Below are positions 1 through 6,000 of a stretch of 28,609 nt of DNA, piece by piece; positions within the stretch are counted from its first letter, which is position 1; each line of letters begins with the position of its first letter. Made by a program: the position numbers. Source of the DNA: Chlamydiia bacterium (GTDB lineage: Bacteria > Chlamydiota > Chlamydiia > Chlamydiales > RGXB01). The stretch covers positions 1-28,609 of the forward strand of contig JBEIFH010000018.1 of assembly GCA_040382515.1 (NCBI GenBank), given 5' to 3'.

Positions 1-3000
1 AAATCTCTTCTATTTAAATTGAACTCGCTGACTGCGCTTAAATTGTCCTGATGTAAAAAAACCCGCTGTGACCAATGACACAATGTTTCGAAAATGTGCT
101 TATGAAAATGCGGTCTTTTTCTTAAAATTTCTAAAAGAGTCACTTCAAGAGGTGAGGCGAGAAAAAATTGGCAGGGGCCATTTATGAATTTTTTATAGAC
201 GCTGTCATAGTGCGAGCTTTCCCCCAAGGATGCTAATAGATACGAGTGCATCTCCTGTTCCATGTCTAATAGCGGCACCCCGTCTCCAAAAAAATTTCTC
301 TCAATGATCCCTATCATCTCCCTTGAGGCAGAGTGTCTAGTCAGAAGGTTTCTAAGGTTCATGAGAAAAAGAACCCTCTCTTGATGGCCATGCCCTCGAA
401 GGAACTGAAACAAGTTCCATTCGAAAGTTGCAAGATCCTCCGACACAAGAGCCCCAACAGATCTTTCTATCAATTCGTATTGAGCGTGCCAGCCTTGCGT
501 GCATTTTAAAATTGCCCTGAGTGCATACGACTCTGCATTATCCGGATACGATAAAATAAGGTGCTTACGATTGTTACACGCCAATGCATGCTCCAAAGAG
601 ATGCTCTTGATGTAACCGGGCAGCAATTTCATGCAGGGCATCCCATCGTTGGTGATATCCACACCAACAGCATCTGCGTCAAATAGGTGGGGACGCTTGG
701 CGGGGTGGGGAAATTTTATATCTACATCACCAAATGAAACCATTTGAAACTTATGGTTGATCCTTATATCCGATTCTTGAAATCCGTAACTTACAAGGTA
801 AGGGATGAGCCGGGCTAATAAAGTGGGAAAATCCCTCTCCCTATAGGGGCTAAAGATGGCTACATCGAAGTCATTTTTGGGATGATCGAAAAGAATTTGT
901 TGTGCCGAACCTCCCACGATAAAAATTTGACAGCTATCTAATGGGGACAGGAACATCCTAAGATTTTGAACCAATACCCCTTTTGTCAAAAAGGTATTAC
1001 CAATATTTTCTGAAAAGATTGTCTGTAACCTGAACGAAGAGCCAGAATCCAAAGGGGTTCCCTGGTCGAGCATCTCAGGAAAAAATGCCGGGGTAAAGCT
1101 TATGTTCCCACTGTAAGAGATCGTCAAAATTTATCCTAAGAAATTATTCAATTCAATATTTTATCAAAAACACAAAAAAAACAAACGATCTTTTTTTTCG
1201 GTTTTTAAAGAAAAAATGCAGGATCGTTGTTTTAAACCCCTTTTTTTTGTTTATTTCAGGTTAAGATTTTTTGAAAAAAAAGATGTTACCGTGTAAGGTA
1301 TTAAATAATAATTTAAAACTCTAGAAGCCTTTATGCCTCCCCTTGTTCTTAAAGATCTTTTTTTCTCCCATTACCAACCTACAACTCTACTCACCCCTAT
1401 ACCATTGCTAAAAAATCCCCCTCCTATCGATAAGAAGTTGGACGAGGAGGCTGTCATTTGGACCGAACCCACCTTCAACGGTTTATTCACCTATTCGATC
1501 CCTTTGAAAGATTTCTTTAAGTACAACTGGACTTTAGGGCTCTTAATCCCTTCCAAGAAATTAAAGATGACTGTCGATCTCCCCGTCGATCTCCCAGATG
1601 TGGAACATCCCCTTCGGGTCCCTTTGGAGCGTAAAGGTCTTTTGACTACCAAACAAACCATGGAAAAACTCAAAGAGCTTTCTGCAGATGACCAGGAAAA
1701 ACTTGCGAGATCTCTTATCTACTATGGAACTGAAATAGGGCTAGCGCTTTTGACTTTTGACCATTTTAGACTGTTGGAAAAAGAGCTTCGGTGGGGCCTC
1801 GTATCTGTCGATCCGACCATTTTTCAAAACCCGGTCACGCTCCATTCAAAAGAGGGGACAAGACGGATTTTATCTAAAAATCTCATGAGATATCTCACCC
1901 AGCATGAGCCTGCTCTAGGGGCCGGAGCCCAAAAAGGGGGATTTTTGGAAACAAAACTCGAGCCCTTTTATGAAGAATGTAAAAAAATACACTCAGAAGC
2001 TTCCAAAATAAATATCACGAAAATAGTTTTATCCATCATTTCGTTTGGCCTTTTGCCGCTTTATTACCTGGTACGCTCGGCTATAATTTTGAAAAAAAGT
2101 AAGGATCTTATAAAAAAACTTGAGAAACAGACCTTAAAAATCCAACTATACAAAATACGAGCCGATAAGATCTATAGTTATTGTAAAGAATTGCAGCCCT
2201 TATTAGGGAATACGCATTTGCCCATGAAAGAAAAAGAGATTGTGATTTTCTAAAATGTGATGAGAACTGCTACAACAGGTGTTTGAAAGGGTTTGACTGT
2301 TTTTTAGCTAGGGCCCGCTAGCATTAGTCGCTATTTTTTTAAGCTTTGCCACCACTTGCAGGATTTTAGAAGACTCCCCTCTTAGCCACTCCTTCAGTTC
2401 TCCATCGGGCATTTGCGCCATCTTGACCGAAATTTTTTTATAGCATTCTTCGGCGAATTTTGTGGAACAGTCTTTATGCACATCATGAGGGGGTCTTAGA
2501 GAAAATCTCTTGTCTCTGAATAGTTCGATTTTCTCTACGATGCAAGGGATAAATTCTCTCAAATTCGCTTCTTGCTCTTCTTTAAGAGCTAAATCAACAA
2601 GATCCGCACCATGGCGGTAGGCAGCGTAAACAGGTTCTACAACCCTGTCATTAGTCTTCTCGGTTGCAAATCTTACAGCTGACCCAAAACCATCAAATAA
2701 GAGCCTCCATTCATCCCTATCAAAGTCCTGCTTACAGATTTCGAAACATTCCCAAAAGTTATTTAGGATGGTAAATGCAAAAAGATCTTTTTCCCCGTCC
2801 GCTAACTGAAGGGTAGAATAGATAGCATCTATTTCTTTTCTATACCGGTGGACAAAACCCATGATGTTTTTTGAGGAACCTATCATCCTTTCGTTATAAA
2901 ATCGGCACTTTTCACCCTCTAAAGCACCGTGATGTAAATATCCCATAAAAAGAAAACCCAGAGATTTGATTGATTCTTTATTGAAAGATTGTGGATCCGG

Positions 3001-6000
3001 TTTTTTTTCGATATCAAGAAAGGCCTTTTGTATCATTAGGGCAAGGGATATGTGTGCCAGTTCATTACCACGTATCTCTTTTTTGCAGTTCGCATCGATC
3101 TGTTTAGTAAGTTCCACAATGCCAGCCGACCGTTCAAGAGATACCATCGCGGCATCGAGGATGTGCGGGTACTCCCCTCTATTTGTCTGTAGGCCTAAAA
3201 GAATCCTATTGTCATCTAAAAAGCGGATAAGCCTATCGTCTTTCGGGTCAAAGGATGCGATGACAAGCTTGGTCACTATCTGGTGTATCATTTCCCCAGA
3301 GGATTCGACCCCTGTGGAAAGGGGGAGAATTTTTAGAAGGCTTTTTCCAAACAGTTCAAAGGTCTCTTCAAAGGAATATACCACCCCCTCCCCAAACCCT
3401 TCATGCAAAAAATTTGCTATGTGGTTGTAAGCCTTCAGTGCGGCTAAGGGATCCTCCTGGGCGAGCTGTTCTACAAAAGAAAGAAAATCAAAAAGTTTCC
3501 CTTTTATGTTTTCATAAGTAGCCGTGCTTTGCAGGATGTCTTTAAAAGAGTTTGCTGCCTCATCGGATTTGACGGGGGAAAAGCGGTAAAGCTGCGCTGC
3601 TGTCAATTTACAAGGATGACGATCGATTAGGGATCCTAAGCCTTGGGTGAAAAAATCTCTATTGTGTTGACTGACCATCTCCATAAACGGGGTGGGACAA
3701 GAGGAAACCTTTGACGAGGTCACGATCGATGCAAACTCATCTATAGGGGTCGAGGCGCCCGATTTCACGGCGTAAAATTTAAGAAGAAGGGCTTTGATCC
3801 AATCGGGATAATCGGTTCCTAAAGGGGAAGGGTATTCCCTTAGTAGTTTGAGACACGTTTGTTCAGGGAGTACTTTCATGGTGATAAGGTCTCTGCCAAG
3901 CGATTCAAATAGAAGGGGGAATTCCCGTTGATCCTCCTTACGGTCCACAAGGCATTCCAATATCTCTTCTTCAAATCTTCCCAACTTTGCTTTTCTATCG
4001 AGGCTAAGATGGTGGAAAATTTCGATTAAAGTTTGGGTTGAAAAATGGGTTGTCCCCATCTCTTGAACACTTTTTACCAAATAATTTAGGGAACATTTCG
4101 TGAAGTTATTTTTCAAAAGTAATAATTCTACCCGTAGTGCCGGATCAAATCCGTTTAAATGTTTTTCCCTATCCTTAGGACGCATAGCTAGGGAGCGATC
4201 GAATATAGATTGTAAAACCTGCTCTCTCCATTTAGGATGCTCTGTCAAAGCGTCCAAAATTTGAGTTTTATCCGCATGGGAAAGCTTATGAAAAAGGGCT
4301 CTTCCCCTTTCGTTCAATACCGGATTTGTCAAAGCTTGTCGAATGGCATCCAAATCGGGTCTCGAGGAGCGGTCTTTAGATTCTAAAAGGGCTACTCTTT
4401 GTTCCAGACACAGTACATCGGTATCATAAAGTCTTAAGATTTGACAACAGATCGCCTGGGCTAATTTCGAAGACTCCCCCTTTTGAAAAAGATTAGGGCG
4501 AAGCTTGGGTAAAACACCCTCCCCTTCTTGAGGGTCAGATTGCATTTGACTGATCAAATGGGACTCGTTTTCTCCCCTTAATAGGGTCTTTGAAGTGGTG
4601 ATGAGCCTCTCTTTTTTCAAAAAGGACCGCTTATCATCTACAGAAAGAAAATTATCCAAAAAAACCTTAGCCTGAAAATGCTTTCCGTATCTTCCTTGAA
4701 GAAGTTCTAGAAAGTTTTTTGCCCGGGGATGGGGACTCTGCTCGTCGAGTAAAGTCATTAAATTGGCGATAAAAAAATCTGTTGTTTCTTTTGAGACGTG
4801 CCCTTCTAAATAGTAATCCAGTTCCCTTAAAAATTGCCCTTCTTGGTAATCGAATCCGTCAAGATGCAGTCTGATGACTTCCCTATGGTTGAATTCGCTG
4901 GTGAATCCTTTTGTAAAATGACCACATACCCTAAATAACGGTTTTATTACTGAACATGGATCGGAAAGCTTTAATTTTTTTGATAACAAACAGTCGAGAG
5001 CTTCTTTGAAACACCCCTTTTCCACCCCAAATTTCGCATAAGGGACAAGAGTAGCTCGACCAAAAATTTGAGATTTGGCATTTAAACTCAACTCGGTACA
5101 CAGGGCGTCGTGGTGAAACAGGTGCGTCCGTTTGTCCAAAAAAGATACAAATTTAAAATCGAACTCTTTTGTCTCCATCGACTGGTAAGCTGCATTCCAG
5201 CGCACATATTTTTTGCTCTTCAAATCTTCTTCTGTAAAGCTTGGCCTAAGGGATTGAAAATAGGTCAAGCATAGTTGGGTAAAATATTCCGGATCGGGCT
5301 GCTCGGGAAAAAAAACCGCAATGTCAATATCTAAAAAGTCTTTTTCTACAAATAGGGACTGGGTGGCCCCCCCGATCAGTATCGGTAAATACCCGTTGAA
5401 AATAACATGTTTTACAAAATTTCCCACCTTAAACCTGATGGGAGGATCCTTGGGATCGGTTGATGTGAGTTCAACAGTTTTGCGAAAAATCGCATCTAAT
5501 TTGGTGATTTGGCTCGGAGTTAGAGATTTGTAGTATTTATGCGAAATCGGTTGGCTTTCAAGAGCGCCCGATTGAGGTACGGCAGCAACAACGGGGGTTT
5601 GTAGATTAAAAGTGGCTGCGTTTGGGTTCAACATAGCAGTACCATCGTTTTCAAATATTCCCCCTCCCGGAAAGCGATATTCTTCAGGTGATCCGGTGCC
5701 ATTAAATGGCGCTGCACCAGCTTGACATCTCTTTTCTCCATCAAAGAAGCCTCTAATAGAATCGTATCAAACAGAGATTCTTCCAAGTTATAGGAACATG
5801 AAGAGGTCATAAGCACCCCACCGGGTTGCACACGTCTTAGGGCCATTCGGTTGAGTTCCCTGTAGGCGCGCACCCCTTTAGAGGTATCTTTTTTTGATTT
5901 AATAAATGCGGGAGGATCAACAATCACAACATCGAACATTTCGGTGGTGTTTTGCAAAAAGGAAAAAACATCACTTTCAATAATTTCATGATTTTCAAGA

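What a model noticed while it worked through the whole genome (the two positions that open the first line are those of the whole stretch)
3..5634. Tandem array of giant proteins with an N-terminal TENT5/FAM46-type poly(A) polymerase domain
g00983 (1108 aa), g00981 (continues across the contig join into g00935 on C16; about 1900 aa) and g00937 (2092 aa, C16:6094-12372) each begin with a ~290-aa domain of the eukaryotic non-canonical poly(A) polymerase family TENT5/FAM46, followed by 800-1800 residues without a family match. The GG motif and the three catalytic acids are intact, so these are probably active RNA-tailing enzymes and candidate host-directed effectors; no table calls them.
Evidence so far: Profile of 14 domains hits TENT5A E 3.9e-10, TENT5B 6.7e-9, TENT5C 2.7e-5; CCA/poly(A) enzymes only E>=0.5. 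AF2 model of g00983 20-310 pLDDT 89.9; best structure TENT5B 6jyj Z 22.4, rmsd 2.9 over 268 residues, then FAM46C 14.2, CCA enzymes <=13.1. G88 G89 D102 D104 D159 (g00983 numbering) invariant in 14 of 14. 2-3 copies in 7 of 7 genus genomes, tandem in G001, G002, G003, G004; 0 of 24 genomes of other families with this query. C18 and C16 ends share 20 bases and G003 has one 1896-aa frame matching both parts. A search of 1.84 billion representatives gives 96 hits, many of 1700-2900 aa with the domain at the N-terminus; one is labelled Chlamydiia. No strongly hydrophobic N-terminus.
(Added by a program. Inside this text positions count along the whole contig: contig position 1 is position 1 of the stretch shown here. 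"Call 12" and the like, gene names such as g00115 and contig names such as C1 are that model's own, and its searches are not shown. The text may have been shortened before it was handed on; [...] marks where a part breaks off. The agent that wrote the report below was given it as the finding of a first reader that could run no searches.)

Follow-up and report, generated by a model that had tools for sequence, protein, structure and literature searches.

The report
Chlamydial giant TENT5-like RNA-tailing proteins
Bacteria of the chlamydia group that live inside other cells carry huge proteins tipped with an intact copy of the RNA-tailing enzyme TENT5, until now described from eukaryotes, which they probably inject into the host cell to alter its RNA.

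Summary
Confirmed and wider than reported. The window, from a lake-dwelling chlamydial genome, holds gene A (1108 aa) and the start of gene B (1895 aa); gene C (2092 aa) follows on the next contig. Each starts with a ~280-aa TENT5/FAM46 domain. The model (pLDDT 93.7) matches TENT5B at Z 22.6, CCA enzymes at 12.8 or less. A profile without TENT5-like short proteins hits TENT5A at E 3e-43, CCA enzymes at 4e-5. The catalytic acids and most residues needed by human TENT5B are kept, and the class II RRD motif is gone. New here: the family occurs in at least 65 of 340 Chlamydiota genomes (18 families), nearly always as 1000-2900-aa proteins, often in tandem, with Ser/Pro/Thr-rich N-termini and no fixed neighbours. 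It was not found in the 29 small genomes that are probably Chlamydiaceae. The two genes between the giants are related to each other and kinase-like. Best reading: type III-secreted enzymes that extend host RNA 3' ends (about 0.5); activity, substrate and secretion are untested. Trees cannot tell whether eukaryotes gave TENT5 to chlamydiae or the reverse.

The parts
2308..5634 (-). Gene A, 1108 aa: Ser/Pro/Thr-rich leader, TENT5-type domain, ~800-aa body without a family match
4705..5577 (-). TENT5/FAM46-type catalytic plus helical domain of A (residues 20-310)
   Evidence: AF2 pLDDT 93.7; Z 22.6 to TENT5B; profile hits
5158..5373 (-). Catalytic motifs of A: G88-G89, D102-x-D104, D159
   Evidence: invariant in 17 of 17 genus rows
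3..1127 (-). First 375 aa of gene B (TTG start, domain at about 288-1064); the frame continues on C16:1-4581; 1895 aa in G002
1..20 (.). 20-base overlap with the start of contig C16 (assembly break inside gene B, not a biological break)
   Evidence: contigs of three runs extend past position 1
1333..2253 (+). Spacer gene x, 306 aa, opposite strand; homologous to the kinase-like spacer gene k (C16:4587-5882, 431 aa) but without its catalytic-loop-like motif
   Evidence: hhalign probability 90.5%, E 1.4e-6; alignments; hmm cross-hits
5628..6836 (-). RlmI-like rRNA methyltransferase; its end overlaps the start of A by 7 bases; next to A in each genus relative where that flank is assembled
6895..7740 (-). 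PrmA (L11 methyltransferase), upstream flank

Best explanation
These are chlamydial type III-secreted effectors. A disordered Ser/Pro/Thr-rich leader routes the protein through the injectisome. The TENT5-type domain binds metal through D102/D104/D159 and adds untemplated nucleotides, most likely AMP, to 3' ends of host RNA. The long, fast-evolving, probably helical body sets place and target in the host cell. The likely effect is a change in stability or translation of host transcripts. In this genus a two-gene unit (giant plus opposite-strand kinase-like gene) was duplicated before the genus radiated, giving A-x-B-k-C. Shown: fold, intact and conserved active site, spread, arrays, N-terminal bias. 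Inferred: secretion, RNA substrate, ATP preference, role of the body.
For: TENT5 is the nearest fold and sequence. The triad is kept in 121 of 131 rows although A, B and C share only 22-25% identity. K161, R169, D176, R235, H279 sit where FAM46B has K202, R209, D216, K280, H329; alanine mutants of K202, R209, K280 and H329 lose poly(A) activity (PMC7049688 section 33; mapped through the TENT5A alignment and motif spacing). S+P+T share of residues 2-26: 0.37 in 55 representative giants, 0.33 in 12 genus copies, 0.34 in 43 of 49 other-family copies, against 0.19 in 549 genome ORFs (p 3e-21, 2e-6, 4e-15); D/E/K/R depleted; this is the effector bias described in PMC2669295 (passages). The genome has SctV/FlhA-family export gate and four NTT genes and separate CCA-like and PcnB-like enzymes. 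Upstream neighbours differ from locus to locus: 24 of 32 had a Pfam match, each a different family. Tandem copies occur in six more genomes. Orthologs diverge faster than their neighbours: bodies 23-30%, domains 35-44%, RlmI 61-67%, OppB 88-89%.
Against: No activity, secretion or expression data. The N-terminal bias is a weak predictor, kin are not independent, and my start calls were crude. A itself ranks only at the 88th-97th percentile with B and C. A overlaps rlmI downstream of prmA, as if co-expressed with ribosome-modifying genes. Glu179 of frog FAM46B is Leu here, and K175 and R274 have no clear counterpart. Proteins of 1900-2900 aa are unusually long for T3SS cargo (own knowledge). No chaperone gene was seen among the neighbours scanned. 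The same fold family also adds C, CCA or other nucleotides.
Confidence: 0.5

Rival explanations
1. Secreted, active nucleotidyltransferase with another chemistry: it blocks tRNA or other RNA ends with non-A nucleotides, nucleotidylates a host protein, or makes a nucleotide signal.
For: The class II base-reading motifs are absent and nothing here fixes the nucleotide. Substrate-side residues differ between clades: F173 is S/A in most rows of the largest clade. Bodies of different clades show no mutual match, so targets may differ.
Against: Residues tied to RNA binding in TENT5B are kept. CD-NTases, MenT and OAS score only Z 4-6. No PADLOC match for 6 of 6 proteins.
Confidence: 0.22
2. The enzyme works inside the bacterium, as an extra RNA-tailing or turnover enzyme on a large scaffold, for instance during the developmental cycle.
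For: A is coupled to rlmI/prmA in the genus. Three paralogs have been kept vertically and intact in all four genomes where the array is assembled. No signal peptide or strongly hydrophobic stretch in A, B or C.
Against: CCA-like and PcnB-like genes are already present. The family is patchy, with 1-7 matches per genome, and was not found in 275 of 340 genomes (a floor for presence). Neighbours are not conserved outside the genus. Divergence is far above housekeeping level.
Confidence: 0.2
3. Secreted but non-catalytic mimic that binds host TENT5 partners or RNA.
For: 10 of 131 rows lack part of the triad; one copy is broken by stops (G100).
Against: Both aspartates are kept in 130 of 131 rows and the whole set in A, B and C, which a decoy would not need.
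Confidence: 0.05

Closest known systems
TENT5/FAM46 cytoplasmic poly(A) polymerases (PF07984; PDB 6jyj, 8exe, 6w36, 7cqz)
   Same: Whole two-domain fold (Z 22.6, 268 residues), N-terminal helix and hairpin, hG[GS], DxD, third acid plus Lys, R-x3-F-x2-D, conserved His in the helical domain.
   Different: Bacterial; about 19% identity; fused to 800-2500-aa bodies; Ser/Pro/Thr leader; arrays. The window proteins do not reach the PF07984 cut-off; relatives in 9 of 400 genomes do. TENT5 is described from animals, choanoflagellates, ichthyosporeans, Amoebozoa and Guillardia (PMC4857005, passages).
[quoted passage not shown]
   Same: Head and neck topology (Z 9-13), GG and DxD motifs.
   Different: RRD motif and following Asn are replaced; body and tail are not matched; the genome has its own two such enzymes.
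Expanded eukaryotic-like effector families of environmental chlamydiae (F-box/BTB NEX and PEX families, PMC4209131)
   Same: Eukaryote-type domain near the N-terminus, tandem duplication, fast divergence, T3SS as likely route.
   Different: Those act on ubiquitination and carry recognisable repeats; here an RNA-directed enzyme with 1-7 copies and bodies without a family match; secretion was shown for them, not here.

Membership tests
TENT5/FAM46 | Catalytic domain with N-terminal hairpin plus helical domain, closer to TENT5 than to class II enzymes | tested here: met
   Z 22.6 vs <=12.8; Foldseek E 1e-12 vs 1e-5; hairpin strands E26-29/E39-42 in the model
TENT5/FAM46 | hG[GS], DhD and third acid | tested here: met
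   17 of 17 genus rows; 121 of 131 bacterial or presumed-bacterial rows
TENT5/FAM46 | Basic and His residues required for activity in FAM46B (K202, R209, K280, H329) | tested here: met
   K161 17/17, R169 14/17, R235 17/17, H279 17/17; numbering transferred by alignment and motif spacing
TENT5/FAM46 | K175, R274 and the Glu179-Lys247 bridge | tested here: inconclusive
   Glu position is Leu in 17/17, but is Glu in only 3 of 26 eukaryote-like rows too; K231 near R274 in 6/17
TENT5/FAM46 | Score above the PF07984 gathering cut-off | tested here: not met
   No match for A or B; best genus member E 0.0043. Met by relatives in 9 of 400 genomes. Hence TENT5-like sister family rather than TENT5 proper.
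TENT5/FAM46 | ATP-specific RNA 3' extension | not testable with these tools
   needs an in vitro assay
Class II CCA-adding enzyme / PcnB | RRDFTIN motif | tested here: not met
   RRD in 9 of 10 and the following Asn in 10 of 10 outgroup rows; T-H-L and Asp in the family
Type III-secreted effector | Ser/Thr/Pro-rich, charge-poor first 25 residues | tested here: met
   against PMC2669295; weak predictor
Type III-secreted effector | T3SS in the genome | tested here: met
   one 709-aa PF00771 match, E 1e-218; the family also covers flagellar FlhA
Type III-secreted effector | Demonstrated export or translocation | not testable with these tools
   needs an experiment
Anti-phage nucleotidyltransferases (CBASS and others) | PADLOC model match or CD-NTase fold | tested here: inconclusive
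   0 families for 6 of 6 proteins; CD-NTase rows only Z 4.7
Protein kinase-like fold (spacer gene k) | Lys, catalytic-loop Asp/Asn and metal-binding Asp motifs; family or structure match | tested here: inconclusive
   Motif-like WVLKP, FLDA.LNNIRL, IIDTE conserved in 5 of 5 (reading from recall); no Pfam or PDB sequence match; Atlas leads at 0.89-0.90 include kinase-like families; not folded

The most novel reading that the evidence does not exclude
An ancient chlamydial family of injected RNA-tailing enzymes is also the source of eukaryotic TENT5: the 'prokaryotic-like' poly(A) polymerase of animals and amoebae would be a captured chlamydial effector domain. Free trees place the eukaryote-like rows among chlamydial lineages (chlamydial monophyly in 0 of 1000 ultrafast bootstrap trees), but the AU test does not reject chlamydial monophyly (p 0.48).
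Probability: 0.17. Interest if true: 0.93.

Novelty: new variant of a known kind. Interest (0 to 1): 0.8.

Why it matters
TENT5/FAM46 is described as a eukaryotic family with a puzzlingly bacterial fold (PMC4857005, PMC7049688). A large bacterial branch confined, as far as seen, to host-dependent chlamydiae supplies the missing relatives and makes the origin of TENT5 testable. If secreted, these would be bacterial effectors that write on host RNA tails; my searches found no paper describing that. Host TENT5 tails mRNAs of secreted defence proteins in worms and macrophages (PMC9668313, abstract), so a symbiont copy points to a new layer of host control. The ~290-aa domain is well folded in the model and small enough to assay.

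Tried and rejected
Single-protein searches miss the family outside the genus (0 of 34; nothing in PDB); counts rose with broader profiles (17 of 400; 43 of 400; 65 of 340), while a full-length 1811-position model found only 7 of 400. All counts are floors, since only 2-7 candidates per genome were scored and G043 was not scored. Source organisms of the 1.84-billion-library hits could not be obtained (searches gave no organism; no loci), so 'X' rows are presumed chlamydial from tree position and architecture and 'EUK' rows presumed eukaryotic from PF07984 score and length. No match in plasmids or viral contigs; viral structures match only at CCA level, TM <=0.51; these are weak negatives. The ESM Atlas gave only generic phage nucleotidyltransferase clusters. 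Bodies: no Pfam match above cut-off except TPRs in one relative; only weak hits to designed helical repeat proteins, E 0.03-1; bodies of A, B, C and two other clades do not match each other; hhalign of bodies timed out; the full-length model of A could not be made, so the body's fold is open. Promoter scan not above chance (7 vs 9.9). RNA contigs of one lake metatranscriptome cover x and rlmI but not A or B: shallow and unstranded, no evidence either way. Earlier scan notes: nothing by place or sequence; one word match on an unrelated CPR protein. Artefact readings rejected: contamination (array conserved and flanked by chlamydial genes in the genus) and a true break in B.
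Full report
Setting. The window is contig C18 of a 1.39-Mb, 46-contig genome. A locus from a genome of the same order (G009, L102) is titled 'Chlamydiales bacterium'. The genome has four nucleotide transporters, an SctV/FlhA-family gene and two class II nucleotidyltransferases, one CCA-like and one above the PcnB cut-off. 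Of 23 runs listed, 20 hold part of the stretch; those with a readable label are lake, freshwater or aquatic metagenomes. The host is unknown.

Observation. Gene A (2308-5634, minus, 1108 aa) and the first 375 codons of gene B (3-1127, minus) are in the window. C18 and C16 overlap by 20 bases. C16 carries the rest of B (1-4581), an opposite-strand gene k (431 aa) and gene C (2092 aa). The two pieces of B match residues 1-375 and 370-1895 of one ORF in G002 without gaps, so the break is an assembly break. The order rlmI, A, x, B, k, C is seen in G001, G002, G004 and G005 (C cut by a contig end in G001, A in G004); G003 and G006 hold pieces on short contigs. A, B and C are 22-25% identical in the domain and form one clade with their orthologs (98/98), so the triplication predates the genus.

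What the domain is. No Pfam, NCBIfam or PADLOC family calls A, B or C. A profile of 17 genus domains hits TENT5A over positions 28-290 at E 3.5e-10. The model of residues 28-310 has pLDDT 93.7 and matches TENT5B at Z 22.6, rmsd 2.8 over 268 residues, against 12.8 or less for CCA/PAP enzymes; Foldseek agrees. Profile A13, made of 43 domains from Chlamydiota genomes and 5 fragments of presumed chlamydial giants, hits all six TENT5 sequences in PDB at E 3e-43 to 2e-27 and the best CCA enzyme at 4e-5. In an alignment of 167 rows, both aspartates are kept in 130 of 131 bacterial or presumed-bacterial rows and the full triad in 121. The class II RRDFTIN motif is replaced by the TENT5-type R-x3-F-x2-D. 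K161, R169, R235 and H279 correspond to FAM46B K202, R209, K280 and H329, whose alanine mutants are inactive (PMC7049688, outline, first part of Results, sections 33 and 37 read); the numbering was transferred by me through the TENT5A alignment. K175, R274 and the frog Glu179 have no clear match. The window proteins stay below the PF07984 cut-off, relatives in 9 of 400 genomes exceed it, and 0 of 14 control genomes ring. I therefore call it a TENT5-like bacterial family.

How far it reaches. The 1.84-billion library gave 105 hits: the genus, about 60 giants of unknown source and 26 proteins treated as eukaryotic FAM46 (24 from this search, most above the PF07984 cut-off, and 2). Iterated profiles found 17 of 400, 43 of 400 and finally 65 of 340 Chlamydiota genomes in 18 of 42 families; 31 of the 65 had given a row to the model, 34 had not. 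Of 123 matches, 108 lie in open frames of 1000 aa or more, median 1696. Family f35 (1.0-1.3 Mb, 99% complete; Chlamydiaceae by size, my inference) gave 0 of 29 in every search, f37 0 of 30. Head-to-tail or near-adjacent copies occur in all five further stretches fetched and in G231. Upstream neighbours are unrelated from locus to locus (32 of 39 candidates scanned). Other phyla were not searched systematically.

The rest of the protein and the spacer genes. The bodies have no family match, no long hydrophobic stretch and only weak hits to designed helical repeats; 41 library giants share a fast-evolving body among themselves, but A, B and C bodies match neither them nor each other. A full-length model could not be obtained. 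Genes x and k are homologous (probability 90.5%), so the duplicated unit was a giant plus a convergent small gene. k has kinase-like motifs (read from recall; Atlas leads only), x has lost them. k homologs in G231 and G258 lie far from the giants (2 of 5 genomes), so the pairing is genus-specific.

How it most likely works. N-termini are rich in Ser/Pro/Thr and poor in charge: 0.33-0.37 against 0.19, the bias reported for type III effectors (PMC2669295, passages). With the T3SS gene, the separate housekeeping enzymes, scattered loci, tandem expansion and fast divergence, this fits the pattern of eukaryotic-like effector families in environmental chlamydiae (PMC4209131, passages). The most likely mechanism is injection followed by untemplated extension of host RNA 3' ends (0.5). 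Rivals are another chemistry (0.22), a role inside the bacterium, suggested by the 7-base overlap of A with rlmI (0.2), and a decoy (0.05). None of secretion, substrate or expression is shown.

Direction of transfer. Nine partial or unrelated rows were dropped before the trees. FastTree on 167 rows and IQ-TREE on 61 chosen rows, rooted on chlamydial CCA/PcnB enzymes, put the eukaryote-like rows among chlamydial lineages. On the 61 rows the AU test rejects neither chlamydial monophyly (p 0.48) nor eukaryotic monophyly (p 0.66, with a higher likelihood than the free tree). With 21 long or redundant rows removed, the backbone is a polytomy, and chlamydial monophyly appears in 0 of 1000, eukaryotic monophyly in 13 of 1000 bootstrap trees. 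The outgroup is distant, branches are long, and the eukaryote-like rows are unnamed and were picked by likeness to the chlamydial profile. Host-to-symbiont transfer, repeated transfers and a chlamydial origin of TENT5 all remain open.

Literature. PMC4857005 (passages and section 17) lists FAM46 only in eukaryotes; PMC11646218 (passages) groups FAM46 with class II enzymes and suggests a bacterial source without naming one; PMC9668313 was seen as abstract and outline. Searches for FAM46 with chlamydiae (0 papers), TENT5 with chlamydia (1 listed, unrelated by title and abstract), the Pfam names (6 listings, none on bacteria by title and abstract) and effector/RNA-tailing terms found no description. 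The library lacks most subscription papers, and supplements were not read.

Verdict. A real, undescribed-as-far-as-searched bacterial branch of the TENT5 family, widespread in environmental chlamydiae as giant candidate effectors. New variant of a known kind; interest 0.8.

Noticed in passing
window 1333-2253 (+) and G000:C16:4587-5882 (-): The two spacer genes are homologs; k looks like an atypical kinase and x like its dead copy; both are kept in the four assembled arrays of the genus.
   Followed up: partly
window 21852-22943 (-): 363-aa protein with DUF4116 repeats and an N-terminal stretch that resembles an F-box by eye (recall, not called by Pfam): another candidate effector.
   Followed up: no
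window 23180-24045 (-): Two adjacent ORFs (119 and 171 aa) without Pfam match that look like one split glycosyltransferase-like gene.
   Followed up: no
window 28055-28582 (-): ORF upstream of infC without Pfam match that resembles a degenerate threonyl-tRNA synthetase segment by eye.
   Followed up: no
window 15748-17538 (-): Kinase plus FGE-sulfatase fusion, the Pkn1 architecture of chlamydiae (name recalled).
   Followed up: no
L102:5743-12042 (G009): The domain scores 70.5 bits on PF07984 in the genome search, yet hmmscan of the whole 2100-aa frame does not list it: one reason annotation misses the family.
   Followed up: partly
L110:742-5277 (G370): This family member ends in TPR repeats, the only body with a recognised domain among 14 giants scanned in that call.
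   Followed up: no
L091 (G100:C3) and L010 (G006:C141): The G100 copy is interrupted by stops; the G006 copy of B ends after 254 aa; decay or assembly error not checked.
   Followed up: no
P0086: 2093-aa library hit with an atypical N-terminus and matches at two places (about residue 111 and 498-644): possibly two nucleotidyltransferase domains, source unknown.
   Followed up: no
L103, L105-L107, L121 and kin: One clade (families f30, f32, f38, f45) has an insertion of some 30-40 residues between the GG and DxD motifs.
   Followed up: no
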